Source: Escherichia coli 042
Lineage (GTDB): Bacteria; Pseudomonadota; Gammaproteobacteria; Enterobacterales; Enterobacteriaceae
Assembly (NCBI RefSeq): GCF_000027125.1
Contig: NC_017626.1
Reading direction: 5' to 3' (one strand)
DNA: 64,000 bases
In this document: positions 21,373-51,645 of the stretch, piece after piece
How positions within the stretch are numbered: position 1 is the first letter of the stretch
Layout of the letters: every line of letters starts with the position of its first letter
Made by a program: the position numbers and the translations under genes
Notes under the pieces: model-generated
The model's database searches: none
Told to the model about the DNA's origin: nothing
What the model saw: the letters and a program-made list of their open reading frames with translations, nothing else

Positions 21373-21393
21373 TTTAACGGATTACGAGAGAAA

Positions 21394-22938: not shown

Positions 22939-22953
22939 GGCAGGTGTCGGGAA

Positions 22954-24941: not shown

Positions 24942-24943
24942 CC

Positions 24944-26674: not shown

Positions 26675-26679
26675 TTTTT

Positions 26680-27171: not shown

Positions 27172-27179
27172 TTCTGCCG

Positions 27180-27216
27180 GACGGACAGGGCATCCTGTCC
27201 GTCATTTTTATTTTTT
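27180..27216 (+). terminator. Rho-independent terminator downstream of hcp
   Basis: Perfect 10-bp stem gacggacagg/cctgtccgtc with 4-nt loop followed by atttttatttttt. Confidence 0.65.
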
Positions 27217-27339
27217 CTTCAGCATCTGTTGGCGGGTGCTGAAGAAAGAATTCTCAATCCTGAACACAGACCTGATGCGCCTGGGTTACGGCGAAGGGCG
27301 GTAGCGTGCCTGACGGTCTCCTGACAGTGAGTGAATAAC

Positions 27340-31096: not shown

Positions 31097-33608
31097 CTCC
31101 CTGCAAAATGTTTTATCCGGGGTGGGAACCCTGAACCGCTACAGACTGGATATACCTTCCTGCCCGTCATCGCTGGATGTTGAAGATTTCAGCGGAACTG
31201 AAGGCATAAGTAAGATTTACCGGTATGACATCATTTTTACCAGTACGGACAGGTATCCTGATGCTGCCTGGTTCCTGCGTAAATCCGCAACCCTGATAAT
31301 GGGAACCGGATTACTGGAAAGCCTGACTGAACAGAAAAAAGTGCACGGTGTTATTACTGATTTCAGACGTATTTCTGGCTCTGAGGACCAGGCACAATAC
31401 CGGATCACACTTAAACCTTTCATTTCCCTGCTGGATAAACAGTTCCGTACACACCGTTTTTTCGTTAATAAATCAGTGCCTGAGGTGGTGGAGCAAATCC
31501 TGACGGAACACGGGCTGAAAGGCTGGGAGTATGAGTTCAGCCTCAAAAGGACATATCCGAAGCGCGAACAGATTAACCAGTATCAGGAAAGCGATCTGAG
31601 ATTTATCCAGCGCCTGCTGGCAGAAGTGGGCATTTTTTACTTCTTTACGTTGCACCCGGATGCGCAGACAGAGGTGATCCACTTCGGTGACGTCCAGGCG
31701 GCGTTGATATTTGATAAAACACTGCCCGTTAACAGCCCGTCCGGTATGAGTGACAGTGGCACAGACTCAGTATGGGCATTGAATGTGGAGCACCGGGTGG
31801 TGGAAAGCCGTGTTATCACGAACGACTATAACCACCGCGAGGCCCAGAACATACTGATGTCCGTACCGGCGGACATGACCCGTGGAGAAGGTTACGACAC
31901 CAGTTATGGCGAGGTTTATCATTACCGGCCACGCCATACAGAAAGGGGCGATAAAATTGACCCTGCGCCGGAGACGGCTAACTTCTGGGCCCGGCTCGAT
32001 CACGAGCGTTTTCTGGCTGAGCAAACACGTATCACAGGTAAAAGCACCGATGCCAGTCTGTTACCGGCACAGGTGCTGACTATTACTGACAGTACTCCAC
32101 CAGTGTTGCCTGCACCGTTACAGGAGCCGGTTCTGCTCACGCAGCTTCTGTTCACCGGTAGCCGGAAATCTGCGCTACAGGTGATGCTGAGTGCTGTTCC
32201 TTACAGCGAGATTGTCTGCTGGCGACCACCGTTACTTACTCGTCCGAAAATCACCGGGACCATGACGGCCCGTGTGACCAGTGCAAAAGAAGGGGATATC
32301 TACGCCTGGCAGGATGCTTCAGGCATGTACCGGGTGAAATTTGATGCTGACCGTGATGATAAAAATCCGGGACAGGAAAGTATGCCGGTACGTCTGGCCA
32401 AACCCTACAGTGGTGATGCTTATGGTTTTCATTTTCCGCTGATTCAGGGAACGGAAGTGGCCATTGCTTTTGAGGAAGGTGATCCGGATCGTCCCTATAT
32501 AGCGCATGCCCTGCATGATTCACGTCATGTTGATCACGTTACCGATAAGAACGGTACGCGCAATGTTATCCGTACGCCGGCAAATAACAAGTTGCGGATG
32601 GAGGACAAACGCGGTGAGGAGCATATCAAGCTCAGTACCGAGTATGGCGGTAAGACACAACTTAATCTTGGCCATAACGTTGATGCCTCCCGGGAACTCA
32701 GGGGAGAAGGCGCTGAGCTGAGGACTGATGACTGGATAAGTATCCGGGGAGGAAAAGGAATATTTATCAGTGCAGATATGCAGCCTCAGGCACAAGGAAA
32801 GATGCTGGATATGGATGAAGCTATCCGCCAATTGGAGCAGGCATTATCTCTGGCCCGAAGTATGGCGAAGGCCGCAACTGCTGCAAATGCTACTCAGGGA
32901 GATATAAGTTGTCAGCAACGGTTGAATGCATCACTAACAGATCTCACTGCGCCGGGAATGCTGTTGCATGCTCCTGATGGGATTGGCATGGTTAGTGCGC
33001 GGGCGTTACGAATTGCTTCAGGTAGTGAAAGCGTGGGCATAATGTCGGGAGATAACACTGATATTACTGCCGGGCAGTCATTTACAGTTGTAGCAGAAGG
33101 TGCTGTTAGCCTGTTGAGCAGAAACCAGGGGATGCAACTGTTAGCAGCAAAAGGGCGGGTAAATATTCAGGCTCAAAGTGACGATTTGTCAATGAGTTCC
33201 CAACAGAATCTTGATATTCAAAGTTCTGAGGGCAAAGTGACTGTTTCTGCTAATCAGGAACTGATACTGGCATGTGGTGGAGCTTATATCAAACTAAGCG
33301 GTGGAAATATTGAGCTGGGATGCCCGGGACAGATTCTGTTAAAAAGCACGAATATGCAGAAGATGGGACCAACAAGTCTTGATATTGCGTCTGTTGAAAT
33401 GCCGCGAGGGTTTGGGGGCGGTTTTATTCTTACCGATGAAGCGGGAGTGCCGCAACCTTCGACGCCTTATCGATTAACAACGGCTGAAGGTGATATTCTA
33501 CAGGGGATCACCGATGAAAATGGTAAAACAGCGCCAGTCAACACCTCCATTCCGTCAGTAGTAAAAGTTGAGTTTGGGAAGGTAAAAATTCATGGAGAAA
33601 CAGAATGA
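31083..33608 (+). CDS. vgrG: T6SS spike protein VgrG (TssI) with C-terminal extension
   Basis: 841 aa; gp27/gp5-like core and C-terminal extension; followed directly by lipase effector gene. Confidence 0.9.
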   Translation: MNLTDSLQNVLSGVGTLNRYRLDIPSCPSSLDVEDFSGTEGISKIYRYDIIFTSTDRYPDAAWFLRKSATLIMGTGLLESLTEQKKVHGVITDFRRISGSEDQAQYRITLKPFISLLDKQFRTHRFFVNKSVPEVVEQILTEHGLKGWEYEFSLKRTYPKREQINQYQESDLRFIQRLLAEVGIFYFFTLHPDAQTEVIHFGDVQAALIFDKTLPVNSPSGMSDSGTDSVWALNVEHRVVESRVITNDYNHREAQNILMSVPADMTRGEGYDTSYGEVYHYRPRHTERGDKIDPAPETANFWARLDHERFLAEQTRITGKSTDASLLPAQVLTITDSTPPVLPAPLQEPVLLTQLLFTGSRKSALQVMLSAVPYSEIVCWRPPLLTRPKITGTMTARVTSAKEGDIYAWQDASGMYRVKFDADRDDKNPGQESMPVRLAKPYSGDAYGFHFPLIQGTEVAIAFEEGDPDRPYIAHALHDSRHVDHVTDKNGTRNVIRTPANNKLRMEDKRGEEHIKLSTEYGGKTQLNLGHNVDASRELRGEGAELRTDDWISIRGGKGIFISADMQPQAQGKMLDMDEAIRQLEQALSLARSMAKAATAANATQGDISCQQRLNASLTDLTAPGMLLHAPDGIGMVSARALRIASGSESVGIMSGDNTDITAGQSFTVVAEGAVSLLSRNQGMQLLAAKGRVNIQAQSDDLSMSSQQNLDIQSSEGKVTVSANQELILACGGAYIKLSGGNIELGCPGQILLKSTNMQKMGPTSLDIASVEMPRGFGGGFILTDEAGVPQPSTPYRLTTAEGDILQGITDENGKTAPVNTSIPSVVKVEFGKVKIHGETE

Positions 33609-35287
33609 CAAAATATCAGGGATATGACGTAACAGATGCCACCCATAAAACCAGTATTCATAATGACTGGAAAGTTGTTGTTGCAAAGAAAAAACCGGCG
33701 CGGGGTGTGACTTTAACTATTGGCATATTTTTCGATGGTACCGGAAACAATCGGGAGAATACAGCATCTCGCCTGATGAAATTTAATGAGTGTAGTGCAG
33801 CCAGACAGGGGGTAAATCAAAAAGATGCACAAAGCTGTGAGGACTTTCTTAAAGAAATTAACAAGAACAGTATCTCGAATGGCAGTTATCGTGGATATTA
33901 TTCCAATATTCACTGGCTTAATATACTCTATCATCCAGATCAGGTACTTAAAAAAGACCAGACGTCAGCTCAAATTAAGACTTACATTTCCGGGATAGGG
34001 ACTGCGGCTGGTGAAGCAGATTCAGTCATAGGCATGGGATTAGGCACCAGTATTCTGGATATATTTGAAGGTGTGGTGACGAAAACCGACGAGGCAATGG
34101 AACGAATCACCCAGGCGTTATCAGAATTTATGGGGTTCAATTTAAGTCCTGATTTTTGTATCGCAAAAATCCAGTTTGATGTTTTTGGTTTTAGCCGGGG
34201 AGCAGCGGCGGCAAGGCACTTTGCCAATCGGGTTATGGAACAGGATCCTGCTATAGCCAGAGCTATTGCTAAAGGGCTCAGAGGCGATTTTTATGATGGT
34301 AAACCTTCTGGTGAAGTACGTTTTCTGGGGCTTTTTGATACTGTCGCAGCTATTGGTGGAATCAGTAATTTCTTCGATATTAATGGACGTAGCAACCCGG
34401 GAGTAAAGCTGGAGTTGCGTCCTTCAGTCGCGAAGAAAGTTTTCCAGATTACTGCAATGAATGAATACCGATATAATTTCAGCCTGAACAGTATTAAAGG
34501 TATGTGGCCCGAACTGGCTTTACCGGGGGCGCATTCAGATATTGGAGGTGGTTACAATCCGGTAGGTTCACCTCTGCAGGAAAATGAAAGTCTGTTTCTG
34601 AGTTGCCCGGAATTTGAAATTGTCAGTGACGATACCAGAGAAATGGATACGCGAGTATACCGTAAAGCAGAGCAAGTCAGAAAAATGTTGATGACTCTGC
34701 CAGCCTTAAAACATATTTTGCCTCATGGAAAACTAACCACCAAAATTCGTTCCATAGGTGTGAACAACAGCAATCAACGTCGGGCTGGTGTGATACAAAA
34801 GCAGGTGGGAGCCGCAGTATTTTTTGAGCGTATGGCAGTACCTAATGACTGGGCTAATGTTTGCCTGCGTGTGATGCTGGATGCTGCTCAGGAAGCAGGG
34901 GTATTGTTTGAACCAATTCGACAAACAAATACTGAGTTACAACTTCCATCTGAACTAATATTTCTTGCTGACAAAGCCATTGCTCAGGGAAAAGCGGTAC
35001 GTTTGGGGCAAGAGCCTCAGGCTTTTACTGAGGAAGAGTTGTATATTATCGGAAAATACACCCATTGTTCCGCTAACTGGAATATTGAGTCTGATGGTAA
35101 TTTATGGGTGGATCCTACAACGGGAGAGATTTTTATCCATCGCTTTGGTCCTAAAGGTAATAAGGCGTTCGTTTTTCCGAATAAACCAAATGATCGCTGG
35201 ATTCGTTCTGTATGGTACATGGATGATCAGCAGCGATTGAATGATAACGCAGTAAAAAATACTAAAGTTATGATGTCTGGTGTTTAA
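33605..35287 (+). CDS. tle1: Tle1-family T6SS phospholipase effector (DUF2235 alpha/beta hydrolase)
   Basis: IGIFFDGTGNN motif and GFSRG (GxSxG) nucleophile elbow; ATGA overlap with vgrG. Confidence 0.85.
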   Translation: MTKYQGYDVTDATHKTSIHNDWKVVVAKKKPARGVTLTIGIFFDGTGNNRENTASRLMKFNECSAARQGVNQKDAQSCEDFLKEINKNSISNGSYRGYYSNIHWLNILYHPDQVLKKDQTSAQIKTYISGIGTAAGEADSVIGMGLGTSILDIFEGVVTKTDEAMERITQALSEFMGFNLSPDFCIAKIQFDVFGFSRGAAAARHFANRVMEQDPAIARAIAKGLRGDFYDGKPSGEVRFLGLFDTVAAIGGISNFFDINGRSNPGVKLELRPSVAKKVFQITAMNEYRYNFSLNSIKGMWPELALPGAHSDIGGGYNPVGSPLQENESLFLSCPEFEIVSDDTREMDTRVYRKAEQVRKMLMTLPALKHILPHGKLTTKIRSIGVNNSNQRRAGVIQKQVGAAVFFERMAVPNDWANVCLRVMLDAAQEAGVLFEPIRQTNTELQLPSELIFLADKAIAQGKAVRLGQEPQAFTEEELYIIGKYTHCSANWNIESDGNLWVDPTTGEIFIHRFGPKGNKAFVFPNKPNDRWIRSVWYMDDQQRLNDNAVKNTKVMMSGV

Positions 35288-35906
35288 CGCTACAGGATGA
35301 CAATACATGACCAGAGATAAAATCATTTTTATCGCACCATTATTGGCATTGTTAACTGGGTGTAATTCGGTTAGCTCACGGTATGCTGATTTGGATAAGA
35401 CTGAATGGGGTTATAAAAAATTACCCTATGATGAATGGAAATTTCTCTTTATTTATCCAAAGGCTCTGCCTGCGCTGGCCACCCAGGCGTTGATGGTGGA
35501 CGGGGAAGGTTATAAGACGACTTATCAGTATCTTGATAATACCGAGCCGAGTCAGGTCAGTGTAGGGCGCTGGAATGACCATCTGGGCGCGACTGAGTCG
35601 TATTATAACAAGGGGAAAGCATTACCCCTGATGTTGCGTTTTTGCTGGGATTCAATAATTGATAAAAAGAGTTATGAAACTCTGATTTTTTTTAAAAAAG
35701 GGACCTGGGAGCAGATGGTTACGCCTTACGCAGACAACCGCTGGAACGAAACCTATTATCGTTCAACGATGATTATTGGTCTGGCTCCTGAAGGGAAGGT
35801 AAGAGTCTGGCTGGGAGATCGCGGTAATCCGGTGGTACCTCAGTTGGATGCTAAAATTACTACAGTATCGGGTGATAAAATGAAGATGTGTAAGGGGGTT
35901 ACTAAA
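35238..35906 (+). repeat. Direct repeat copy 1 (~669 bp): last ~50 bp of tle1 plus most of tli1-a
   Basis: Matches 36059..36727 at a constant 821-bp offset; encoded proteins identical over ~200 aa. Confidence 0.8.
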
Positions 35907-35984
35907 AGTGATTTCTCATATGGATATGATGAAGATATTAAGGAGTTTATCAGAGATAAAACTTATCCTTACGGTAACTGGTGA
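35307..35984 (+). CDS. tli1: Tli1-like lipoprotein immunity protein, copy a
   Basis: Lipobox LLTGC; immediately downstream of tle1; 225 aa. Confidence 0.7.
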   Translation: MTRDKIIFIAPLLALLTGCNSVSSRYADLDKTEWGYKKLPYDEWKFLFIYPKALPALATQALMVDGEGYKTTYQYLDNTEPSQVSVGRWNDHLGATESYYNKGKALPLMLRFCWDSIIDKKSYETLIFFKKGTWEQMVTPYADNRWNETYYRSTMIIGLAPEGKVRVWLGDRGNPVVPQLDAKITTVSGDKMKMCKGVTKSDFSYGYDEDIKEFIRDKTYPYGNW

Positions 35985-36058
35985 CTCAAACCAGAATAAT
36001 GATGAGCATATAAAAAGAAAATCTAATTTTCATCTGGCGTAAAAAAACGGGCAATAGC

Positions 36059-36727
36059 TGAATGATAACGCAGTAAAAAATACTAAAGTTATGATGTCTG
36101 GTGTTTAACGCTACAGGATGACAATACATGACCAGAGATAAAATCATTTTTATCGCACCATTATTGGCATTGTTAACTGGGTGTAATTCGGTTAGCTCAC
36201 GGTATGCTGATTTGGATAAGACTGAATGGGGTTATAAAAAATTACCCTATGATGAATGGAAATTTCTCTTTATTTATCCAAAGGCTCTGCCTGCGCTGGC
36301 CACCCAGGCGTTGATGGTGGACGGGGAAGGTTATAAGACGACTTATCAGTATCTTGATAATACCGAGCCGAGTCAGGTCAGTGTAGGGCGCTGGAATGAC
36401 CATCTGGGCGCGACTGAGTCGTATTATAACAAGGGGAAAGCATTACCCCTGATGTTGCGTTTTTGCTGGGATTCAATAATTGATAAAAAGAGTTATGAAA
36501 CTCTGATTTTTTTTAAAAAAGGGACCTGGGAGCAGATGGTTACGCCTTACGCAGACAACCGCTGGAACGAAACCTATTATCGTTCAACGATGATTATTGG
36601 TCTGGCTCCTGAAGGGAAGGTAAGAGTCTGGCTGGGAGATCGCGGTAATCCGGTGGTACCTCAGTTGGATGCTAAAATTACTACAGTATCGGGTGATAAA
36701 ATGAAGATGTGTAAGGGGGTTACTAAA
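36059..36727 (+). repeat. Direct repeat copy 2 (~669 bp), including a fossil of the tle1 3' end upstream of tli1-b
   Basis: Sequence tgaatgataacgcagtaaaaaatactaaagttatgatgtctggtgtttaa (tle1 stop region) recurs before second tli1. Confidence 0.8.
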
Positions 36728-36805
36728 CATCCAGATGGATATGTTTATTACGGTGATACACCAGATTTTATCAAAGGGAAAATTTATCCCTACGGCAACT
36801 GGTGA
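36128..36805 (+). CDS. tli1: Tli1-like lipoprotein immunity protein, copy b (divergent C-terminal ~25 aa)
   Basis: Identical to copy a through ...KMKMCKGVTK, then diverges (HPDGYVYYGDTPDFIKGKIYPYGNW). Confidence 0.7.
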   Translation: MTRDKIIFIAPLLALLTGCNSVSSRYADLDKTEWGYKKLPYDEWKFLFIYPKALPALATQALMVDGEGYKTTYQYLDNTEPSQVSVGRWNDHLGATESYYNKGKALPLMLRFCWDSIIDKKSYETLIFFKKGTWEQMVTPYADNRWNETYYRSTMIIGLAPEGKVRVWLGDRGNPVVPQLDAKITTVSGDKMKMCKGVTKHPDGYVYYGDTPDFIKGKIYPYGNW

Positions 36806-36836
36806 CTCAAAGTGAAAATTTATTTTTGAGAGTATT

Positions 36837-37103
36837 ATGTCTAAAGGTTTTGTATTGCTTGGTGATAATACCACACATGGTGGTAAAGTTATTTCTGCAT
36901 CTTCAACCATGATTGTCGATGGTAAAAAAGTAGCTCTTGTTGGAGATATGGTTAGTTGCCCTGTTTCCGGACATGGTACCAATCCTATTGTGGAGGGCTC
37001 TCCTGAATGGATATCTGATGGAAGAGCTGTTGTGATTGATGGATGTAAATGTCTGTGTGGGTGTAAGGTTATATCCAGTGCACCGGAATGTGCAATAGGA
37101 TAA
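36837..37103 (+). CDS. PAAR-domain spike-tip protein
   Basis: 88 aa, Gly/Cys-rich (GDMVSCPVSGHG, CKCLCGCKV) typical of PAAR cone proteins. Confidence 0.75.
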   Translation: MSKGFVLLGDNTTHGGKVISASSTMIVDGKKVALVGDMVSCPVSGHGTNPIVEGSPEWISDGRAVVIDGCKCLCGCKVISSAPECAIG

Positions 37104-37106
37104 AAC

Positions 37107-38255
37107 ATGGGATGGAGCAGAACAAAATCATTATCAACAGAATTACCTCATAAACCATCAATGATGTTGTGGTTTATGACAGGGGCATTTATGGCTGTTG
37201 TTGGTGCTCTGTTGTTTATTATCCGGGCATCAGAATATGTGAAAGCATTAAATAATTTCAGTATCTGGTGGCTTGCATTGACTCCTCCGGGGTGCTGGTT
37301 TTTCCTGTTTTGCCTGCGACACTGGCAGTGGAGCAACCAGATGGATGAACATTTGTTTCTTAAAAAAGAGGGGGAGTATGCTCAGAAACAGTGGGAATCC
37401 TGGGCCGAAAGGTATCTTGTTATTACTGCCAGTTGTGTTTATTTGCCTGATAAAATAACGGTAGCTACTCTTTGTGATGAATTGCCTCTGCAGTACGGCC
37501 TTGTAAAGAAAATAGATTATCTTTCTGACAGTGGGCATAAGGTTGAAGCCTCTTTACGTGTCTTGCTTAGGGAGATAACGGATAAATTTTGTCAGTTACC
37601 TGCCGCTCTCCCTGTAAATGTGACGCTGATAACCGATCAGCCTGATTCTGAAATCAGATCTGCTTTTGTTTCTGCATGGGAAGCGTTATTTCCCCAACGC
37701 GTCGTTCCTGACAATATCGAGGTTACTCCTGACTTTTCCATGGGGTGGGTTGATGAGCGTCTGAAACAACCAGTGCTGACTGTGGATTTGATACTGGTAA
37801 TACAGCTTAATGGGGGAAATACATACTCTGACGGACTGGCTGCACTTTTGTTGACCAGCGATGATGTTGCGCAAAAATATAATCTGTCGCATTCAGCCCG
37901 TCTGCTACGCCCGATGTCGCTGGATATCAACAAGTTTAATGATGAATTCACACTTTTCCTTGAAACCCAGACAGCAGCCTGTCGTACCGCTCGTGTACTG
38001 GGAGACTGTTATCACTGGGAAAAGATTGCTGCACCGCTGATGACTATTGGAAACCAGTATGGTGCCGGATGGGAACCGTCCGGACGTATGTTACTGGAAA
38101 AATGGTGCGGTATCCCGGGACCTGCTGCTCCGTGGCTGCTTACTGCTCTGGCAGCCGATCTGGTCTGTCTTGGTAATGATTCTCTCCTGACTTTATTCTC
38201 ATCCGGAGAAGAACATTTTATCAGTACTGTTACATCAGGAAACCAGAATGAATAA
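37107..38255 (+). CDS. Hypothetical membrane protein between PAAR and tssM
   Basis: 382 aa; two N-terminal TM helices; tightly packed with flanking genes. Confidence 0.5.
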   Translation: MGWSRTKSLSTELPHKPSMMLWFMTGAFMAVVGALLFIIRASEYVKALNNFSIWWLALTPPGCWFFLFCLRHWQWSNQMDEHLFLKKEGEYAQKQWESWAERYLVITASCVYLPDKITVATLCDELPLQYGLVKKIDYLSDSGHKVEASLRVLLREITDKFCQLPAALPVNVTLITDQPDSEIRSAFVSAWEALFPQRVVPDNIEVTPDFSMGWVDERLKQPVLTVDLILVIQLNGGNTYSDGLAALLLTSDDVAQKYNLSHSARLLRPMSLDINKFNDEFTLFLETQTAACRTARVLGDCYHWEKIAAPLMTIGNQYGAGWEPSGRMLLEKWCGIPGPAAPWLLTALAADLVCLGNDSLLTLFSSGEEHFISTVTSGNQNE

Positions 38256-41200
38256 ACTGGCCTGTCTGTCTGGTCGCTTTGGGCGACCGGGGATTGTATT
38301 TATTGGTGTGGCTGCGCTCTGGTGGCTGATAACCCGATATGGAGCATATCTGGGGGCAGAAACACGCCGGGATCAAATACTACTGCTGATATTGCTGAGT
38401 CTGGGGGTGCTCTTTGTCTGTTACCTGCCTGTGATGAAAAAATATGTTCAGGAACTGACATATCGACGCAGGGCCCGTAAGGAGCAAAGGTTACCTGACG
38501 ATGAAGAGCGATTGGCTCAGACGCCACCGCGCTATGTTACTGTTCAGGATATTCGTCATACTCTGCGGCGCCAGTATGGCAGATTCTGGGGACGTAAGAT
38601 ACGCATTCTGTTGATAACAGGTACCGCCTCTGAGGTTGAGTTGTTGACCCCGGGCCTGACAGAACAGTTCTGGCAGGAAGAGCAGGGGACATTGCTTCTC
38701 TGGGGAGGAGACCCCTCGCAGCCGGAAAACGCAGACTGGCTGGCTGCGTTACGCCGTCTGCGTTACCGGCCTGCTGATGGCATTGTCTGGGTAACTTCCG
38801 GACTGAGTGAAACATTATCCGCACCACTGACAGAAGATGCCCTGGACAGGGTTTCCCGTGCGGTCAGTTCATGTTGTGAGCGCCTTGGCTGGCGTCTGCC
38901 GCTGTATGTCTGGTCACTGCAGGAGAGTCCGGATGAGCGAGGGCGTATTACTCAGCCCGTGGGATGCCTTCTGCCAGCAGAATGTAGTTCTGACAAACTG
39001 AAAGCACAACTACAGGCCATGCTCCCCGGGCTTGTTGCTCAGGGGATACAGCAGATATGCTGTGCCCCTCGGTATTATTTTTTGTTGTCGCTGGCAGAGC
39101 GATTCAGACGAAATATTGATGCTGTGGTGGAGCCATTATCCGTATTACTCCGTCCATACCGTCAGTTGTTGCTGGCGGGTATTGTTTTCAGTCCGGCAAC
39201 TGTCGGCGGTGAACGAAGTGTCAGACATCGCTGGCGAATGGATAACCGCTGGGAGGCGTTGCCGGAGACAGTGCAGCAATTACCTGTCCGGCTACAGCCT
39301 TCCCGCACAGGTCATAACTGGCGCAGAAGTCTGGCCGTTATGGCGGCCATACTGATGATGGCTCAGGGAACAGGAATGGTGGTTTCCTTTCTGGCAAACC
39401 GGAGTCTGGTTGCTGAAGTACAGGAACAGATTCGTCCGGCTCAGAACCAGCAACTGTCTCCTGCAGAACGTCTGCAGGCGTTGCTGAATCTGCAGAAATC
39501 CCTGGCCCGCCTTCAGTACCGGGAGGAGCACGGGGCGCCATGGTACCTGCGGGCCGGTATGAATCAGAATGCAGACCTGCTCGCGGTCGTAATGCCCCTT
39601 TATGCACAAAATGCACATCTTTTACTGCGTGATGCCGCTGCTGCTCATCTTGAGCAGCAGCTCAGGACATTTATTCGTCTTCCTCCGGACAGCCCGCAGC
39701 GGGGGAAAATGGCAAAAGCCGCATATGACCAGCTCAGACTGTATCTGATGCTGGCGCAACCGCAACATATGGAGCCCGCCTGGTTCAGTCGTACGCTCAT
39801 GCGGGAATGGCCACAGCGTGACGGTGTGAGTGCCGTTTTCTGGCAGGCTAATGGCCCGACGTTGCTGGCGTATTATGCCTCCGGGATTATTACTCATCCT
39901 CAGTGGAAGCTGACGGCTGATGAAGAGCTGGTCAGCCAGAGCAGAACTCTGCTGCTTCGCCATCTGGGAACACAGAACAGCGATGCCATGCTGTATCAGA
40001 AAATGCTGGCACGGGTGGCACATCAGTTTGCGGATATGCGTCTGACGGATATGACCGGTGATACTGATGTCTCCCGCCTCTTTTTTACGGATGAAGTGGT
40101 TCCCGGTATGTTTACCCGCCAGGCCTGGGAAGAGGCCGTATTGCCGTCGATAGACACCGTGATTAATGAGCGTCGTGAAGAAATGGACTGGGTACTGACG
40201 GATGGCAGGCAGAAGGCACCGTCACCGGTATCGCCGGAAGCACTCAGACAGCGCCTGACAACGCGCTATTTTGCTGATTTTGGTAATGCCTGGCTGAATT
40301 TTCTGAACAGTCTGCACTTGCGTAAAGCTCAGACGCTGTCTGATGTGACAGAGCAACTGACGCTTATGGCTGATGTGCGCCAGTCCCCCCTGGTTGCTCT
40401 GATGAATACGCTGGCGGTTCAGGGGTGTACTGGCCAGCCCCGGGAAGCGGTTACTGATTCACTGGTTAAATCTGCCAGAAACCTGCTTTCACAGGAAAAA
40501 CAGCCAGTGGCAGTACCGGAAAGCCGGCTTCACGGTCCTCTGGCGACGACTTTCGGGCCGGTGCTTGCACTGATGGATAATCAGAACAACAGTGCGGATA
40601 TGCTGAATCTGCAGACATATCTGACCCGGGTGACACAGGTTCGTCTGCGTCTGCAACAGATTGCCGGCTCTTCTGACCCGCAGGCCATGATGCAGTTGCT
40701 GGCACAGACAGTATTGCAGGGGAAATCGGTTGATTTAACCGATACCCGGGATTACGGCAGCCTGACCGCTGCCGGACTCGGACAGGAGTGGTATGGCTTC
40801 GGACAGACGGTCTTTGTTCGCCCGATGGAGCAGGCGTGGCAGCAGGTTCTTACGCCCGCGGCAGAAAGTCTGAATGCCCGGTGGCGTACTGCGGTGGTGG
40901 ATGGCTGGAATAATGCATTTTCCGGGCGTTATCCGTTTAAAAATGTCAGCAGCGATGCTTCGCTTCCCCTGCTGGCAAAATACCTGAATACGGACACGGG
41001 ACGTATTGCCCGTTTCCTGCAGAATAACCTGAGTGGTGTGTTGCACAGGGAAGGCAGTCGCTGGGTACCTGATACCATTAATACCCGGGGACTGACATTC
41101 AACCCTGCGTTTCTGAAAGCCATCAATACCCTGAGTGAAATAGCGGATGTGGCGTTCACCACAGGTAACGCGGGGCTGCATTTTGAGCTGCGCCCGGGAA

Positions 41201-41637
41201 CTGCTGCCGGTGTGATGCAGACGACGCTGATAACCGATAATCAGAAACTGATTTATGTTAATCAGATGCCGGTATGGAAGCGATTTACCTGGCCGGCTGA
41301 TACGGAAGCACCTGGCGCCAGTTTAAGCTGGGTAAGCACTCAGGCCGGTACCCGTCAGTATGCAGACCTGCCGGGAAGCTGGGGGCTGATACGTCTGCTT
41401 GAGATGGCCCGACGGAAAGCCGCACCGGGCGTTGCCAGTGGCTGGAGCCTGAGCTGGCAGGCGCAGGACGGTCGTATGCTGAATTACACACTGCGAACTG
41501 AAGCGGGGGAAGGGCCGCTTGTATTGCTGAAACTCCGCAATTTTGTTCTGCCGGAAACGGTTTTCGAACTCTCCGGCACGTCAGCGTTTACAGGCAATGA
41601 CGAAGATGCCGGGGATACCGTGGAGGAGACTGACTGA
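38248..41637 (+). CDS. tssM: T6SS membrane complex subunit TssM (IcmF-like)
   Basis: 1129 aa; N-terminal TM helices, large periplasmic domain. Confidence 0.9.
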   Translation: MNKLACLSGRFGRPGIVFIGVAALWWLITRYGAYLGAETRRDQILLLILLSLGVLFVCYLPVMKKYVQELTYRRRARKEQRLPDDEERLAQTPPRYVTVQDIRHTLRRQYGRFWGRKIRILLITGTASEVELLTPGLTEQFWQEEQGTLLLWGGDPSQPENADWLAALRRLRYRPADGIVWVTSGLSETLSAPLTEDALDRVSRAVSSCCERLGWRLPLYVWSLQESPDERGRITQPVGCLLPAECSSDKLKAQLQAMLPGLVAQGIQQICCAPRYYFLLSLAERFRRNIDAVVEPLSVLLRPYRQLLLAGIVFSPATVGGERSVRHRWRMDNRWEALPETVQQLPVRLQPSRTGHNWRRSLAVMAAILMMAQGTGMVVSFLANRSLVAEVQEQIRPAQNQQLSPAERLQALLNLQKSLARLQYREEHGAPWYLRAGMNQNADLLAVVMPLYAQNAHLLLRDAAAAHLEQQLRTFIRLPPDSPQRGKMAKAAYDQLRLYLMLAQPQHMEPAWFSRTLMREWPQRDGVSAVFWQANGPTLLAYYASGIITHPQWKLTADEELVSQSRTLLLRHLGTQNSDAMLYQKMLARVAHQFADMRLTDMTGDTDVSRLFFTDEVVPGMFTRQAWEEAVLPSIDTVINERREEMDWVLTDGRQKAPSPVSPEALRQRLTTRYFADFGNAWLNFLNSLHLRKAQTLSDVTEQLTLMADVRQSPLVALMNTLAVQGCTGQPREAVTDSLVKSARNLLSQEKQPVAVPESRLHGPLATTFGPVLALMDNQNNSADMLNLQTYLTRVTQVRLRLQQIAGSSDPQAMMQLLAQTVLQGKSVDLTDTRDYGSLTAAGLGQEWYGFGQTVFVRPMEQAWQQVLTPAAESLNARWRTAVVDGWNNAFSGRYPFKNVSSDASLPLLAKYLNTDTGRIARFLQNNLSGVLHREGSRWVPDTINTRGLTFNPAFLKAINTLSEIADVAFTTGNAGLHFELRPGTAAGVMQTTLITDNQKLIYVNQMPVWKRFTWPADTEAPGASLSWVSTQAGTRQYADLPGSWGLIRLLEMARRKAAPGVASGWSLSWQAQDGRMLNYTLRTEAGEGPLVLLKLRNFVLPETVFELSGTSAFTGNDEDAGDTVEETD

Positions 41638-43235
41638 TGGCTTCCATTCATTCGCTCCTCAGTGCATGCCAGACGACACCCCGGGATGTGGCTGAACCGG
41701 CTCAGGTGCGTATTGCGCTGTGGGATAAATGGCTTGCTCCCGTGACGCCAGATAATCCCGCAGGTGATGATGCGGGGTACGATGATGATTTTCAGCAGAT
41801 GCGTGAAGAGGTCAATAAACTCTCCGGAGCCGATGCCGGAATTGTCAGCCAGCTTGCAGAAAAATTACTGACCACCAGAACCAAAGATATCCGGGTGGCG
41901 ACCTGGTATATCTGGGCCCGTCTGCGGCAGGATGGTGAAAAAGGTCTGGCCGACGGTCTGGAGCTGCTGACCGGTTTGTTGCAGCGTTTTGGAGAGCACC
42001 TGCATCCACAACGGTCACGGGCCAGGAAGGCGGCGCTGGAGTGGTTATGCAGCGCCCGCATACTGGACAGTCTGTCTCTGTATCCGGAGGTGGTGAAGGC
42101 GGATACCCTGCGCATTGCCGGGGCGCTGTGGCTGGCAGAACAGACCTTTACGGATGAGGCTTCCGCCCCGGTGCTGAACGGGTTATATCAGGCACTTGAA
42201 AATCGCCTGATGAAGGCCGGTGGTGTTGATGCAGTGGTGCCTCAGGAGGCTGCCGCGCCGGCACCGACGGTAACATCCGGCAGCGTCATGGCATTATCTG
42301 CCATCACCTCCGGACAGGAACTGCTGTCACAGGCCCGTGTTCTGGCAAAATATCTGCGTGACCAGCCTGAGGGCTGGCTGGCGGCTCATCGACTGATGAA
42401 AAGCGTCCGGCATGACACGCTGCATCAGTTACCGCCGTTATCTGCTGATGGACGGACCCGTATTGCCCCACCGGGGCCGGACCGGCGTGCGTCACTGAAA
42501 CGGTTGTATCTGCAGCAGAACTGGTTGTCACTGCTTGAACAGTGTGACGATATGTTTGCCCGGGGAGCCAGTCATCTGTGGCTGGACCTGCAGTGGTATA
42601 TTCATCAGGCGCTGTTGCAGACCGGAAAAGAAAATTATGCTGCCATTATTCAGTATGACCTGAAAGGATTGCTTCTGCGCCTGCCGGGGCTTGAGACACT
42701 GGCTTTTAACGACGGCATGCCGTTTGCCGATGACGTGACGCTGAGCTGGATACAGCAGCAGGTGATGGAGTGTGGTGAACGCTGGGCGGAAGAACCTTCT
42801 GTAACGATAACGGCAGCTCCCGGAGATAACGACATTTTATCTCTTGAGCCGGAAGCCCTGCAGATTGCGGATAATGAAGGAACAGAAGCCGCTTTAAGCT
42901 GGTTACAGGCACGTCCCGGTATTCAGTCTGACCGCAGCAACTGGCTACTGCGCCTGTTGATGGCCCGTGTTGCCGAACAGACAGGAAAAAATGACCTTGC
43001 CCTGCACCTGCTTGCGGAGCTGGATGAACGTGCAACCCGGCTGACCCTGTCACAATGGGAACCTGAACTGGTATTTGAGGTAAAAGCCCGCCGCCTGAAA
43101 CTGTTGCGTATGAAGTCCGCAAAAACTGAAAGTGACAGGGTGCGTCTGCAGCCTGATATGGAACATCTTCTTGCCGGGCTCATCGCCATTGATGCTGCCA
43201 GAGCTGCTGTGTTGTGCAATTCGGGAAGTTCATGA
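41637..43235 (+). CDS. tssA: T6SS protein TssA (ImpA N-terminal domain)
   Basis: ImpA_N pattern VTPDNPAGDDAGYDDDFQQMREEV...WYIWARL; ATGA overlap with tssM. Confidence 0.88.
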   Translation: MASIHSLLSACQTTPRDVAEPAQVRIALWDKWLAPVTPDNPAGDDAGYDDDFQQMREEVNKLSGADAGIVSQLAEKLLTTRTKDIRVATWYIWARLRQDGEKGLADGLELLTGLLQRFGEHLHPQRSRARKAALEWLCSARILDSLSLYPEVVKADTLRIAGALWLAEQTFTDEASAPVLNGLYQALENRLMKAGGVDAVVPQEAAAPAPTVTSGSVMALSAITSGQELLSQARVLAKYLRDQPEGWLAAHRLMKSVRHDTLHQLPPLSADGRTRIAPPGPDRRASLKRLYLQQNWLSLLEQCDDMFARGASHLWLDLQWYIHQALLQTGKENYAAIIQYDLKGLLLRLPGLETLAFNDGMPFADDVTLSWIQQQVMECGERWAEEPSVTITAAPGDNDILSLEPEALQIADNEGTEAALSWLQARPGIQSDRSNWLLRLLMARVAEQTGKNDLALHLLAELDERATRLTLSQWEPELVFEVKARRLKLLRMKSAKTESDRVRLQPDMEHLLAGLIAIDAARAAVLCNSGSS

Positions 43236-43236
43236 G

Positions 43237-43929
43237 ATGTCTGTCATGCATTATCTTCAGGACAAAACATTTCAGGATATAGTCAAAAATCTGGTGTTAC
43301 CGCTTCTGTCGGGCATTATTATTCCTCTTGTCAAATGGTTTGTGCAGCATTATGGCTATGCGCCGAATATCAGGAAATACAGATTTGAAAAAATTCCTGT
43401 ATCTGAAAAGGAGTCCATTCTTGCCCGTATTGACAAACTGACAAAAGAACCAGCAACGAAAAATACACTGGTAAGAATAAAATACTGTTATGAACAGATG
43501 GGGATATATCTCCCGACGTGGTGTTGTAATAAGCTGATTTGTTTTATATCCGACAGAAATATCAGCTCAGTGGATAACAGACTGCATTGTTTTCTTAAAT
43601 ATTCTTTTGTCGGTATATTTTTAGATGGCAAATTTACTGTTAATACTCGTCGTGTGCATAAAAGTTACTGGATGATAGCAGTGTTTTCGGTGTTTTCTTT
43701 ATGTGTTCAGTTTACGGGAGGGATACTTACAACCATGCCATTTCTGTCGGGGAGTAATACAGTTTTATTTATGTTATTTTCTCTCGTTTATTTTATCATG
43801 ATATTTCTGACAGTTATATTCACATGTAATCTGATTAATGAAATCCGGCTTGCCGTTCAGTTCGGGCGATTGTTTGAGGCATGGCTGAAGTCAGAGCGCG
43901 AGTCTCCGGAACAGTTAGCTTTATTCTGA
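43237..43929 (+). CDS. Low-GC hypothetical multi-pass membrane protein inserted between tssA and tssF
   Basis: 230 aa from MSVMHYL; C-terminal half strongly hydrophobic; local GC clearly below flanking T6SS genes. Confidence 0.5.
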   Translation: MSVMHYLQDKTFQDIVKNLVLPLLSGIIIPLVKWFVQHYGYAPNIRKYRFEKIPVSEKESILARIDKLTKEPATKNTLVRIKYCYEQMGIYLPTWCCNKLICFISDRNISSVDNRLHCFLKYSFVGIFLDGKFTVNTRRVHKSYWMIAVFSVFSLCVQFTGGILTTMPFLSGSNTVLFMLFSLVYFIMIFLTVIFTCNLINEIRLAVQFGRLFEAWLKSERESPEQLALF

Positions 43930-43936
43930 GAAGATA

Positions 43937-45700
43937 ATGGACGATTTAACCCTGCGTTATTTTGACGCTGAAATGCGTTATCTGCGTGAAGCCGGAAAGG
44001 CGTTTGCACAGGCTCATCCCGATCGGGCGGCGATGCTGGATCTCGATAAAGCGGGTACGCCTGATCCCTGCGTGGAACGCCTGTTTGAAGGTTTCGCCTT
44101 TTCCATGGGACGACTGCGCCAGAAAATCGACGATGATTTGCCGGAGCTTACTGAAAGTCTGGTCAGTATGCTCTGGCCTCATTACCTGCGTACTATCCCG
44201 TCCCTGTCGGTGGTGGCACTGACTCCCCGGTTATCCGTCATGAAAATGGCTGAAACCGTACCAGCCGGACTGGAAGTGACTTCCCGCCCTGTTGGCCCCG
44301 GAAATACAGTCTGTCGTTACCGTACCACCCGGGCCATACCACTGAATCCACTGGCAGTGGAGAAGGTTGTTATGACGACGGAGCCGGACGGGCGTTCAGT
44401 GTTGAAAATAGGTTTTGCCTGCAGTGAACTGGCTGACTGGTCTCAGGTCGATTTGCATCGTCTGAGCCTGTATCTGGCAGCAGAAGCCCCGGTCAGCAGC
44501 ACCCTTCATCTGATGATGACAAAGCGTCTGGCTGCGCTGTATCTGAGGCTGCCGGGAAATGATGAGCGGATCCGCATTGACGGATGGTTTTCACCCGGTG
44601 GTTTTGCAGAAGAAGATCGGCTGTGGCCGAAAGGTGACAGTGCTTTCAGTGGGTATCAGTTATTGCTGGAATATTTCACCTTTCGGGAAAAGTTTATGTT
44701 TGTTCATCTGAACGGACTGGAGAATGTTTCTCTGCCGGCAGGTATTTCCGGATTCGATCTTGAGGTGGTGCTGAGTCAGCCCTGGCCAGCAGATTTACCT
44801 GTGACAGACGATGCCCTGTGTCTGCATTGTGTGCCGGTGATTAACCTTTTTACGCTTGAAGCCGATCCACTCATCATCAATGGGCTGGAGAGCGAATACC
44901 TGCTGCGCCCGAAGCGTCTGCAGGATGGGTATACGGAGATATATTCAGTGGATGCGGTGACGGGCTCCGGGCGGACCGGCAGTGCAGAGTACGTGCCTTT
45001 TACCAGCTTCCGTCACCGTGGGGGAATGCTGCGCCATGATGCACCCGAACGTTATTATCATACCCGGGTGAAGCGGGGTGTCACGGGGATGTATGACACA
45101 TGGCTTATCCTTGGCGGTCAGCGGTGGGAGGCGGATCGGATGCCGGAGCGGGAAACGCTTTCATTACGTATTACAGGTACCAATGGTCAGCTTCCCCGTC
45201 GTGCGTTGCAGAGTACGCTGCTTGATCGGTGTGAACAGGTACTGCAGGCCCCGGTCAGTGTACGTAATCTTTGTAAACCCACGCTACCGGTTTATCCGCC
45301 GACAGAAGATCGTTTTCACTGGCGGGTGATGAGTCATCTGGGGACAGGATTTCTTAACATGCTGAGCAGTGCGGAAGTGCTGCGTGGCACGCTGGCGCTT
45401 TATAACTGGCGGGACGATGAACTTAATCACCGTCGGCTTGATGCCATTCTGGCTGTACAGCATCATCGTATTCAGCGTTTTGAAAAGGGTTTTCTGCTCC
45501 GGGGGCTTGATGTGGAGGTAACTCTTGATGGCAACGGGTTTGCCGGAGAGGGAGATATTCACCTGTTTGGCGAAATGCTCAACCGTTTCCTGGCCCTGTA
45601 CGCCGATATGAATCAGTTCAATCAGCTCACACTGATTGTTCAGCCTGAAGGAAAATGCATCCGGTGGAAAGAAAATCACAATCCGCGCCTGCCCGGTTAA
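43937..45700 (+). CDS. tssF: T6SS baseplate subunit TssF
   Basis: 587 aa; N-terminus MDDLTLRYFDAEMRYLREAGKAFAQAHPD typical of TssF. Confidence 0.9.
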   Translation: MDDLTLRYFDAEMRYLREAGKAFAQAHPDRAAMLDLDKAGTPDPCVERLFEGFAFSMGRLRQKIDDDLPELTESLVSMLWPHYLRTIPSLSVVALTPRLSVMKMAETVPAGLEVTSRPVGPGNTVCRYRTTRAIPLNPLAVEKVVMTTEPDGRSVLKIGFACSELADWSQVDLHRLSLYLAAEAPVSSTLHLMMTKRLAALYLRLPGNDERIRIDGWFSPGGFAEEDRLWPKGDSAFSGYQLLLEYFTFREKFMFVHLNGLENVSLPAGISGFDLEVVLSQPWPADLPVTDDALCLHCVPVINLFTLEADPLIINGLESEYLLRPKRLQDGYTEIYSVDAVTGSGRTGSAEYVPFTSFRHRGGMLRHDAPERYYHTRVKRGVTGMYDTWLILGGQRWEADRMPERETLSLRITGTNGQLPRRALQSTLLDRCEQVLQAPVSVRNLCKPTLPVYPPTEDRFHWRVMSHLGTGFLNMLSSAEVLRGTLALYNWRDDELNHRRLDAILAVQHHRIQRFEKGFLLRGLDVEVTLDGNGFAGEGDIHLFGEMLNRFLALYADMNQFNQLTLIVQPEGKCIRWKENHNPRLPG

Positions 45701-49664: not shown

Positions 49665-49857
49665 CAGTCAGTGTTCTGATTTTACCCCGGCCGGATATAA
49701 CAGAAGGGATATCTGCAGATACCCTGCAGCATGGTTCACAGTATTCTGGTCATGTTAATGATTCTGTTTTTTATTTCTGAATAAAGCGATACCCACGATA
49801 TAACATCCGTGGATGTCGGTGGTGATTATTTTTTTGTTCACAGATTAAGGTGCGTTT

Positions 49858-51645
<1,788 letters not shown>

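What the first reader, a model, noticed from the sequence alone, without database searches (positions are those of the whole stretch)
37107..38255. Uncharacterised membrane protein between PAAR and tssM
A 382-aa protein with two N-terminal TM helices starts 4 bp after the PAAR stop and overlaps the tssM start. This position is where PAAR-associated cargo or T6SS membrane-complex accessory proteins are typically encoded.
Basis: inference. Interest (0 to 1): 0.4.

Follow-up and report, generated by a model that had tools for sequence, protein, structure and literature searches.

The report
Membrane-anchored thiolase-fold partner of PAAR
The unnamed gene between PAAR and tssM in the E. coli Sci-1 type VI secretion cluster encodes a protein tethered to the inner membrane whose cytoplasmic part has the fold of a thiolase enzyme but lacks conserved catalytic-type residues, most resembling known helper proteins that load the secretion spike, so it is probably a spike-tip helper rather than a toxin.

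Summary
Window 37107..38255 (+) is a real 382-aa gene. It starts 3 nt after the PAAR stop and overlaps the tssM start by 8 nt. The window is E. coli 55989 (EAEC) Sci-1/T6SS-1; the gene is not discussed in the searched literature.

No Pfam or NCBIfam model matches it. It belongs to a family of over 200 representative proteins, all found in T6SS contexts.

PAAR lies 2-3 nt upstream in 78 of 87 copies. tssM follows within 1 nt or overlaps in 80 of 87. PAAR and this gene share an evolutionary history distinct from the flanking core genes. The effector cargo upstream varies independently of it.

Best reading: a membrane-tethered spike-tip (PAAR) helper or docking factor, analogous to TvpD/PA0098 and Tla3. 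Binding to PAAR is inferred, not shown. It is a new variant of a known kind and is moderately interesting.

The parts
36837..37103 (+). PAAR gene (88 aa, class-1 PAAR; EC042_4537 orthologue), the upstream partner
   Evidence: Pfam PF05488, E 8e-24. Directly upstream of family members in 81/87 copies, 78 of them with a 2-3 nt gap. EAEC PAAR biology from PMC10715212.
37097..37100 (+). AGGA Shine-Dalgarno for the 382-aa gene, lying inside the end of PAAR
   Evidence: Read directly from the sequence; 6-nt spacing to the ATG at 37107.
37107..38255 (+). The 382-aa gene ('X'; WP_001403985.1; 'KPHS_23130 family T6SS system protein' or 'hypothetical protein' in RefSeq)
   Evidence: median dN/dS 0.20.
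37161..37229 (+). Predicted transmembrane helix 1 (aa 19-41)
   Evidence: Kyte-Doolittle 19-residue mean up to 2.3. AlphaFold helix 19-42, block pLDDT 91.
37263..37316 (+). Predicted transmembrane helix 2 (aa 53-70), continuing as a cytoplasmic helix to aa ~100
   Evidence: AlphaFold helix 53-100. Hand-computed mean hydropathy about 1.55. K+R counts (N-terminus 2.3, loop 0.8, post-TM2 4.1 on average) favour N-in/C-in topology.
37413..38237 (+). Cytoplasmic thiolase/ketosynthase-fold domain (aa ~103-377), without conserved catalytic residues
37803..37916 (+). Most conserved motif, aa 233-270 (Q..GG..YSDGLAALLLTSDDVA.KY.L.H.ARLLRPM)
   Evidence: Invariant and nearly invariant columns. Aligns to the thiolase motif 'SDGAAA.LVMSE..A..LGL.P.ARI' at sub-threshold E 0.3-1.4. 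Strand-helix-strand in the confident model.
38248..38255 (+). 8-nt overlap of the gene's end with the tssM start (ATGAATAA)
   Evidence: tssM follows within 1 nt or overlaps in 80/87 copies; 77 of these overlap by 1-23 nt.
38248..41637 (+). tssM (1129 aa), the downstream neighbour
   Evidence: PF06761, PF21070 and PF06744.

Best explanation
The gene encodes an accessory protein of the T6SS spike. A hairpin of two transmembrane helices (aa 19-41 and 53-70) tethers it to the inner membrane. A domain of about 280 aa faces the cytoplasm. That domain is a divergent thiolase/ketosynthase-superfamily fold with no conserved Cys or His, so it most likely acts by binding proteins, not by thiolase-type catalysis.

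Its nearest structural relative is Tla3, the DUF2875 adaptor that loads Tle3 onto VgrG2b. Its nearest functional analogue is TvpD/PA0098, a thiolase-like predicted co-chaperone of PAAR-like domains.

Proposed mechanism (inferred): it is made in step with PAAR by translational coupling. At the inner membrane it binds the small PAAR cone, or the PAAR-capped VgrG tip. It holds or presents that tip next to the TssM/TssL base of the membrane complex, helping the spike and baseplate dock. It stays behind when the machine fires.

Shown here: the gene, its conservation, the predicted topology, the fold, the absence of conserved Cys/His, the genetic coupling to PAAR and tssM, and independence from effector type. 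Inferred: physical binding to PAAR/VgrG, any contact with TssM, and any requirement for T6SS activity.

For: Sequence echo of thiolases: the best PDB sequence hits of the soluble-domain profile are three true thiolases, all on the family's most conserved motif (E 0.3-1.4).

Not a thiolase-type enzyme: no Cys or His appears among the invariant or nearly invariant columns of the wide family alignment.

Linkage: 81/87 copies have PAAR directly upstream, 78 of them with a 2-3 nt gap. PAAR-X pairs also occur in islands with no tssM: VgrG-123aa-338aa-PAAR-X and Tli3-PAAR-X.

Shared history: PAAR and X pairwise distances correlate at r 0.87 (partial 0.82 given TssF, Mantel p 5e-4). TssM, TssF, TssA and the VgrG N-terminus correlate with one another at 0.95-0.99 but with X only at 0.62-0.69. 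Synonymous divergence of PAAR and X is twice that of tssM and tssF in the same locus pairs.

Not effector-specific: six distinct cargo families lie between vgrG and PAAR and mix freely with X types.

Topology: K+R counts favour a cytoplasmic C-terminal domain.

[quoted passage not shown] Thiolase-like TvpD/PA0098 is modelled as shielding a PAAR-like domain (10.64898/2026.02.23.707444). PRK06147 proteins have a PAAR gene next to them in 52% of cases (PMC7714669).

A fused PAAR-linker-X AlphaFold run with 31 paired sequences gave pTM 0.77 and pLDDT 84.
Against: No physical interaction was tested. The AlphaFold output gives no inter-domain error or contacts. The gain in confidence over the X-only run (pLDDT 69) may come simply from the more diverse alignment.

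The PAAR-X covariation is at least partly linkage, because the synonymous sites also co-vary.

EAEC PAAR binds VgrG-Tle1 when the proteins are co-produced for pull-down and cryo-EM, with no mention of this gene, so it is probably not an obligate chaperone for capping (PMC10715212).

In VasX-type clusters X sits next to tssM while PAAR is about 6 kb upstream. Three loci lack an adjacent PAAR.

No sequence model of DUF2875 or any other family matches.

TM2 is only borderline hydrophobic. If it does not span the membrane, the domain would be periplasmic and could not meet PAAR.
Confidence: 0.5

Rival explanations
1. It is an accessory subunit of the membrane complex. It would bind the TssM and/or TssL transmembrane or cytoplasmic regions to stabilise or regulate the complex, with no specific role for PAAR.
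For: tssM follows within 1 nt or overlaps in 80/87 copies. In VasX-type clusters the gene stays next to tssM while PAAR lies about 6 kb upstream. X distances correlate with the N-terminal third of TssM beyond the TssF background (partial r 0.62). The protein is predicted to sit in the inner membrane, like TssL and TssM.
Against: PAAR-X pairs occur in islands with no tssM nearby. The X tree follows PAAR, not TssM (r 0.87 against 0.65). Synonymous divergence switches sharply at the X/tssM junction. The fold is that of spike adaptors/chaperones. The X-TssM_N correlation could reflect recombination tracts reaching into the tssM 5' end; tssM 5' remnants follow X in L034 and L075.
Confidence: 0.2
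2. It is an effector-specific adaptor in the manner of Tla3. It would bind one cargo toxin (here Tle1) and load it onto VgrG.
For: Tla3 is the closest structure. The gene lies at the end of the vgrG-effector-immunity block. Distant relatives sit in Tli3-containing islands that resemble the P. aeruginosa vgrG2b-tli3-tle3-tla3 island (PMC6560169).
Against: The same X type is found with different cargo (Tle1, Lipase_3, a 750-aa unknown). The same cargo is found with many X types. EAEC Tle1 binds VgrG directly without an adaptor (stated in PMC6560169, and PMC10715212). Known adaptors are soluble, whereas this protein is membrane-anchored.
Confidence: 0.08
3. It is itself a PAAR-carried cargo effector that inserts into target membranes, or an immunity protein.
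For: It sits next to PAAR. It has hydrophobic helices, and relatives of about 465 aa have four. In Tli3-PAAR-X islands no other obvious toxin gene was seen.
Against: No immunity gene lies between it and tssM, because the two genes overlap. No toxin domain was found. It keeps a fixed position across genera under purifying selection, whereas the true cargo region is swapped. Its fold matches adaptor/chaperone proteins. The evolved 1190-aa VgrG in L002 could itself be the toxin matched by the Tli3-like gene (PMC6560169).
Confidence: 0.07
4. It is an active thiolase-superfamily enzyme, for example an acyltransferase that modifies a lipid or a spike protein at the membrane.
For: A complete thiolase/ketosynthase fold. 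A retained thiolase-like sequence motif. S241 is invariant down to about 20% identity.
Against: No Cys or His is conserved across the family, and the enzymes of this fold use a Cys nucleophile with His or Asn (established knowledge). The retained motif is structural, at the start of the C-terminal half, not catalytic. Tla3, with the same fold, is described as an adaptor (PMC6560169).
Confidence: 0.05

Closest known systems
Tla3 (PA0259), DUF2875 T6SS adaptor of P. aeruginosa H2-T6SS; crystal structure 8YZ3
   Different: There is no match to the Pfam DUF2875 model. A weak sequence hit (E 0.82) was not reproducible. Tla3 is soluble and cytoplasmic, is described as having two DUF2875 domains, and binds Tle3 and the VgrG2b TTR domain (PMC6560169). 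This protein is membrane-anchored, is coupled to PAAR, and is independent of effector type.
TvpD / PA0098 (PRK06147, 'thiolase-like' IPR040771), predicted PAAR co-chaperone of Class II Tvp systems
   Same: It is a thiolase-like T6SS accessory protein of about 380 aa encoded beside a PAAR-type gene. It is modelled as helping to shield the spike-tip domain before and during loading on VgrG (10.64898/2026.02.23.707444; PMC7714669; PMC11883445). This is the closest functional analogy to the mechanism proposed here.
   Different: TvpD accompanies DUF4150 ('PIPY') PAAR-like domains together with DUF2169 (TvpA) and DUF6484 (TvpC). It lies upstream of the PAAR gene and is soluble. Here the partner is a canonical 88-aa PF05488 PAAR. 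No DUF2169 gene or stand-alone DUF6484 gene was found among the scanned cluster ORFs. The gene is downstream of PAAR and has an N-terminal membrane hairpin.
DUF2169 (TvpA/Tap2) chaperones of PAAR-like tips
   Same: Same proposed logic: a dedicated partner protein for the spike-tip cone, required for a functional VgrG-tip complex (PMC11883445).
   Different: The fold is unrelated; DUF2169 is a novel beta fold. It is specific for DUF4150/PIPY domains. Canonical PAARs were reported to bind VgrG on their own.
Thiolase/ketosynthase superfamily enzymes (FadA, FabH, FabF, PKS KS domains)
   Different: No conserved Cys or His. An N-terminal membrane anchor. T6SS-only genomic context.

Membership tests
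DUF2875 / Tla3 adaptor family (Pfam PF11394) | Significant match to the DUF2875 profile | tested here: not met
   No Pfam hit for the protein at E<=0.01, for any of 42 members at E<=10, or for 10 distant relatives at E<=0.1.
DUF2875 / Tla3 adaptor family (Pfam PF11394) | Three-dimensional similarity to the solved Tla3 structure | tested here: met
DUF2875 / Tla3 adaptor family (Pfam PF11394) | Soluble cytoplasmic protein with two DUF2875 domains (PMC6560169) | tested here: not met
   An N-terminal hairpin of two predicted TM helices followed by a single thiolase-fold domain.
DUF2875 / Tla3 adaptor family (Pfam PF11394) | Binds a cognate effector and the VgrG C-terminal (TTR) domain | not testable with these tools
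   Needs two-hybrid or co-purification assays. Genomically, X type is independent of effector family.
TvpD / PRK06147 thiolase-like T6SS accessory proteins | Sequence match to PRK06147 / IPR040771 | tested here: inconclusive
   No ketoacyl-synthase-type Pfam family at E<=10. No T6SS thiolase-like NCBIfam family at E<=1 in 60 members.
TvpD / PRK06147 thiolase-like T6SS accessory proteins | Co-occurrence with DUF2169 (TvpA), DUF6484 (TvpC) and a DUF4150 PAAR-like gene | tested here: not met
   Among the cluster ORFs scanned (20851..46755), none is a DUF2169 or DUF4150 protein. The only DUF6484 signal is a weak sub-threshold match inside VgrG. PAAR is a canonical PF05488 protein.
TvpD / PRK06147 thiolase-like T6SS accessory proteins | Thiolase-like fold and adjacency to a PAAR-type gene | tested here: met
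   Fold. PAAR directly adjacent in 81/87 copies, though upstream rather than downstream.
Thiolase/ketosynthase enzymes | Conserved catalytic Cys nucleophile plus His/His, His/Asn or His/Cys | tested here: not met
   Nearly invariant columns of the wide alignment are W3, W96, W99, R268, G335 and W343 only. There is no invariant Cys or His in the closer sets either.
Thiolase/ketosynthase enzymes | Five-layer alpha-beta-alpha-beta-alpha thiolase fold | tested here: met
T6SS cargo effector | Toxin domain and an adjacent cognate immunity gene; polymorphic presence | tested here: not met
   No toxin family matched. The next gene is tssM, which overlaps by 8 nt. Position is fixed across 79 genomes while the true cargo varies.
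T6SS core membrane complex (TssJ/L/M) or TssM N-terminal duplication | Sequence similarity to TssM (N-terminal hairpin plus cytoplasmic domain), TssL or TagL | tested here: not met
   BLASTP against TssM aa 1-401 gave a best E of 0.16. No DotU, IcmF or OmpA family hits.

The most novel reading that the evidence does not exclude
The protein is the missing inner-membrane receptor for the spike tip. Its cytoplasmic thiolase-fold domain would recognise the zinc-bound PAAR cone on VgrG, and its membrane hairpin would sit in or beside the TssM/TssL base. PAAR binding would then license docking of the baseplate onto the membrane complex. This would explain why PAAR is essential for TssK recruitment and sheath assembly in EAEC even though it carries no toxin. 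It would also add an overlooked component to the best-studied structural model of the T6SS.
Probability: 0.25. Interest if true: 0.8.

Novelty: new variant of a known kind. Interest (0 to 1): 0.55.

Why it matters
[quoted passage not shown] This conserved gene sits between PAAR and tssM, yet the searched literature does not discuss it. Cluster diagrams draw unassigned genes simply as 'unknown function', and RefSeq mostly calls it hypothetical.

Recognising it as a membrane-tethered member of the thiolase-fold class of spike accessory proteins (Tla3, TvpD) does three things. It extends that class from PAAR-like DUF4150 tips to canonical PAAR. It gives a concrete candidate for the unexplained step by which PAAR promotes baseplate docking. 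It makes that step testable with one deletion mutant and a handful of interaction assays.

It also gives annotators a rationale for naming a family of over 200 representative proteins across Enterobacterales, Pseudomonas and other Proteobacteria.

Tried and rejected
1. TssM N-terminal duplication. The layout (TM hairpin plus a cytoplasmic domain of about 300 aa) suggested a copy of the TssM N-terminus. BLASTP gave E 0.16 and the fold is thiolase-like, so this was rejected.

2. Sequence-family assignment. Pfam, NCBIfam and PDB sequence searches with single sequences and with profiles gave nothing significant. Weak hits to NF041560 'T6SS_Burk_ExIF' were insignificant; in the one member inspected the match lay in the TM region (E 0.72).

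3. Sequence link to Tla3. The wide profile A2 gave 8yz3 at E 0.82 as its only non-membrane hit. This was not reproduced with the ~465-aa subgroup, the soluble-domain profile or the C-terminal profile. The planned profile-profile test against a DUF2875 alignment was therefore dropped, because no Tla3 sequence could be obtained.

4. Motif mapping. I first guessed that 'YSDGLAALLL' is the degenerate Cys 'nucleophilic elbow'. That was wrong: it aligns to the thiolase 'SDGAAA...' strand-helix at the start of the C-terminal half (secondary structure).

5. Locus retrieval. The search for related loci with the wide alignments A2 and A3 failed for lack of a conserved 7-10 residue stretch, so A1 was used.

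6. Fold libraries. The afdb50 fold library was not available.

7. Rosetta-stone fusion. P0062 (615 aa with a Phage_GPD domain) is a vgrG 5' part joined to X from mid-TM1. It is a deletion product, not a meaningful fusion.

8. X type tracking effector type. Rejected by the cargo table.

9. PAAR-X covariation as proof of physical co-evolution. Downgraded, because synonymous divergence co-varies too, which points to a shared recombination block.

An explicit (GGGGS)x6 linker was used instead.
Full report
**1. The observation**

The window is identical to E. coli 55989 (EAEC), NC_011748.1 3411611-3413174. The region is the Sci-1/T6SS-1 cluster. Gene order is:
- tssB (20851), tssC, tssK, tssL, an OmpA-domain protein, hcp, clpV;
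- a 191-aa protein, a DUF7480 lipoprotein, vgrG (31083), tle1, two tli1 copies;
- PAAR (36837..37103), the 382-aa ORF (37107..38255), tssM (38248..41637);
- tssA, a 230-aa membrane protein, tssF, tssG, tssJ, tssE.

The ORF has an ATG start and an AGGA Shine-Dalgarno at 37097-37100. It begins 3 nt after the PAAR stop and overlaps the tssM ATG by 8 nt.

RefSeq usually calls the protein 'hypothetical protein'. One recent record calls it 'KPHS_23130 family T6SS system protein' (WP_001403985.1). The only paper that uses that locus tag lists it among virulence genes without comment. EC042_4538, the presumed orthologue locus tag in strain 042 (the gene after PAAR, which is EC042_4537), appears in no paper of the library. 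Klebsiella and Enterobacter T6SS papers mark the unassigned genes of their cluster diagrams simply as 'unknown function'.

**2. It is a real, conserved gene family**

A word-indexed search found 246 proteins. The best 120 listed hits were mostly full length, at 43-99% identity, and nearly all lacked Pfam domains. An exhaustive profile search of 1.84 billion representatives found 221 proteins at E<=0.001. Nearly all full-length hits are 370-470 aa and match end to end.

A scan of one genome per species returned 79 loci in Enterobacterales and Pseudomonas. Median dN/dS is 0.20, against 0.09 for PAAR, 0.13 for TssM and 0.05 for TssF. So the protein is under purifying selection but evolves faster than the core parts.

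**3. Anatomy**

Residues 19-41 are strongly hydrophobic. Residues 53-70 are aromatic-rich and borderline by hydropathy. AlphaFold models them as a helical hairpin, with the second helix running on to residue 100. Mean K+R counts across 42 homologues are 2.3 in the N-terminal tail, 0.8 in the loop and 4.1 after helix 2. This favours an N-in/C-in topology, which puts the large domain in the cytoplasm. The topology is a prediction.

The cytoplasmic domain (aa ~103-377) is therefore a complete thiolase/ketosynthase fold.

At sequence level nothing is significant. However, the best PDB hits of the soluble-domain profile are three genuine thiolases (FadA 3goa, FadA5 4ubt, 1ulq; E 0.3-1.4). All three align to the family's most conserved motif: YSDGLAALLLTSDDVAxKYxLxxxARLLR against thiolase SDGAAAxLVMSExxAxxLGLxPxARI. 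In the confident model this motif forms a strand, a helix and a strand, as in thiolases. I read this as remote homology rather than convergence, but it is suggestive only.

The family has no conserved Cys or His. The nearly invariant columns of the wide alignment are W3, W96, W99, R268, G335 and W343. Thiolase-fold enzymes need a Cys nucleophile with His or Asn (established knowledge). The protein is therefore most likely not a thiolase-type enzyme and acts by binding.

**4. Genomic context**

Window proteins were mapped by tblastn on all fetched loci.
- 81 of 87 gene copies have PAAR directly upstream: a 3-nt gap in 67 and a 2-nt gap in 11.
- In 80 of 87 copies tssM follows within 1 nt or overlaps; 77 of these overlap by 1-23 nt.

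Each linkage breaks somewhere.

Without tssM nearby:
- VgrG(1190 aa)-123aa-338aa-PAAR-X(472 aa) in an orphan island;
- Tli3-PAAR-X(465 aa).

Without an adjacent PAAR:
- VgrG-PAAR-VasX_N effector-...-X-TssM clusters, one with a DUF4123 adaptor just upstream of X;
- three loci with no PAAR ORF upstream.

Two apparent 'PAAR-X without tssM' cases in Enterobacterales (L034, L075) carry a tssM 5' remnant after X. They are recombination products and do not count cleanly.

**5. Evolutionary pattern**

Pairwise-distance matrices over 31-41 loci show that TssM, TssF, TssA and the VgrG N-terminal part share one tree (r 0.95-0.99). PAAR and X depart from that tree (r 0.5-0.7) and agree with each other. 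Their correlation is r 0.87, and the partial correlation is 0.82 given TssF (Mantel p 5e-4).

Synonymous divergence of PAAR (1.52) and X (1.49) is twice that of tssM (0.73) and tssF (0.76) in the same locus pairs. PAAR and X therefore form a block with its own, deeper history, and that block ends at the X/tssM junction. This places the gene in the exchangeable spike/cargo region, not in the conserved core. It also means the covariation is at least partly linkage and cannot be taken as proof of physical co-evolution.

**6. Not effector-specific**

The interval between vgrG and PAAR holds six distinct cargo sets:
- Tle1 with DUF2931 lipoproteins;
- a ~680-aa class-3 lipase with a ~257-aa lipoprotein;
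- a ~750-aa unknown protein with an FGE-sulfatase-like protein;
- a Pyocin_S-like protein with DUF6392;
- a 634-aa LysM protein with a 226-aa protein;
- the 123-aa and 338-aa proteins of L002.

One X type occurs with several cargo sets, and one cargo set occurs with up to seven X types. That argues against a Tla3-style effector-specific adaptor. In addition, EAEC Tle1 binds VgrG directly (stated in PMC6560169, and PMC10715212).

**7. What is known that bears on mechanism**

- Tla3 is a cytoplasmic adaptor that bridges Tle3 and the TTR domain of VgrG2b (PMC6560169).
- A second thiolase-like T6SS protein, PA0098 (PRK06147; IPR040771), was proposed as an adaptor from gene neighbourhoods. In 52% of cases the next downstream gene encodes a spike component, almost always PAAR (PMC7714669).
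- PA0098 has now been named TvpD. It is modelled with the DUF2169 protein TvpA as a groove that shields the PAAR-like domain of Tse7 (10.64898/2026.02.23.707444, also held as PMC13373197).
- DUF2169 proteins chaperone DUF4150/PIPY tips, whereas canonical PAARs were reported to bind VgrG on their own (PMC11883445).
- In EAEC, PAAR (EC042_4537) caps VgrG-Tle1 in pull-down and cryo-EM experiments. It is required for TssK recruitment, sheath assembly and killing, but not for TssM foci. [quoted passage not shown] The downstream gene is not mentioned (PMC10715212).

**8. Interpretation**

The best-supported reading is a membrane-tethered thiolase-fold accessory protein of the spike tip, without thiolase-type catalytic residues. 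It would be co-produced with PAAR, bind PAAR or the PAAR-capped VgrG tip at the cytoplasmic face of the inner membrane, and help present or dock it at the TssM/TssL base. I put about 0.8 on the identity statement (T6SS accessory protein, thiolase fold, non-enzymatic, Tla3/TvpD-like class). I put about 0.45 on PAAR binding or docking as the mechanism, for 0.5 overall.

The fused-chain AlphaFold result is compatible with a defined PAAR-X arrangement. Regions of X that were disordered became confident (X107-141 and X236-264), and pTM was 0.77. I cannot see the inter-domain error, and the alignment also changed between runs, so I count this as inconclusive.

Rival readings, with evidence and refutation tests given in their own section:
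- a TssM/TssL accessory subunit that does not involve PAAR (0.2);
- an effector-specific adaptor (0.08);
- an effector or immunity protein (0.07);
- an active enzyme (0.05).

**9. Novelty**

The family exists in databases under a placeholder name but is uncharacterised. I found no record of its fold or of its similarity to Tla3 and TvpD in the searchable literature. It differs from both known thiolase-fold T6SS proteins in three ways: it has a membrane anchor, it pairs with a canonical PAAR, and it lies downstream of PAAR at the tssM junction. I class it as a new variant of a known kind.

It is of moderate interest in general. It is of higher interest to T6SS specialists, because it sits in the model system and offers a testable handle on why PAAR is needed for assembly.

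Noticed in passing
window 29985..31096 (+): A 191-aa protein with no family match carries an HExxH motif (HEMAH, aa 97-101). It is followed by a DUF7480 lipoprotein that RefSeq calls 'putative T6SS immunity periplasmic lipoprotein'. The pair lies between clpV and vgrG in many Enterobacterales loci and is tandemly repeated in some (L025, L042). It looks like a candidate metallopeptidase effector/immunity pair of Sci-1.
   Followed up: partly
window 43237..43929 (+): A 230-aa predicted membrane protein with C-terminal hydrophobic segments lies between tssA and tssF. It has no Pfam or NCBIfam match and was found in only one other fetched locus (L076, 34% identity).
   Followed up: no
window 35307..35984 and 36128..36805 (+): Two tandem tli1 immunity genes (DUF2931 lipoproteins, 225 aa each) follow tle1. 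Other loci carry one to five copies or fragments.
   Followed up: no
X/tssM junction, window ~38248; L034 10001-11311; L075 10001-11321: Synonymous divergence drops from about 1.5 (PAAR, X) to about 0.73 (tssM) across an overlapping gene boundary. Short tssM 5' remnants follow duplicated PAAR-X copies. This suggests a recombination hotspot at this junction that mediates swapping of the spike/cargo region.
   Followed up: partly
L002 8001-9419; L088 1176-2573; L096 8001-9395: Distant family members of about 465 aa carry extra C-terminal hydrophobic helices, read directly in the L002 sequence. They sit in PAAR-X islands without tssM. In L088 and L096 a Tli3-family gene (PF24316) precedes PAAR, and L002 has an evolved 1190-aa VgrG. 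This recalls the P. aeruginosa vgrG2b-tli3-tle3-tla3 island.
   Followed up: partly
loci L004-L082, interval between vgrG and PAAR: The cargo region of this T6SS type is highly polymorphic. It holds Tle1, class-3 lipase, Pyocin_S-like, LysM and unknown 750-aa proteins, each with its own putative immunity genes (DUF2931, FGE-sulfatase-like, DUF6392, ~257-aa lipoproteins).
   Followed up: partly
L081 (CACSKA010000001.1, labelled Chryseobacterium sp. 18061): This contig carries an Enterobacterales-type T6SS-1 cluster (PAAR 79% and ClpV 79% identical to E. coli). The assembly is probably contaminated or mislabelled.
   Followed up: no
window 48420..51645 (+): Just downstream of the T6SS cluster (after tssE and a YdcA-family gene), RefSeq annotates a GIY-YIG nuclease family protein and a 3'-5' exonuclease. 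They were seen only in the annotation of the identical locus L001.
   Followed up: no
P0062 (615 aa): A database protein joins the first ~270 aa of VgrG to this family from the middle of TM1. It is apparently a deletion that removed the vgrG 3' part, the cargo, PAAR and the start of the gene.
   Followed up: yes
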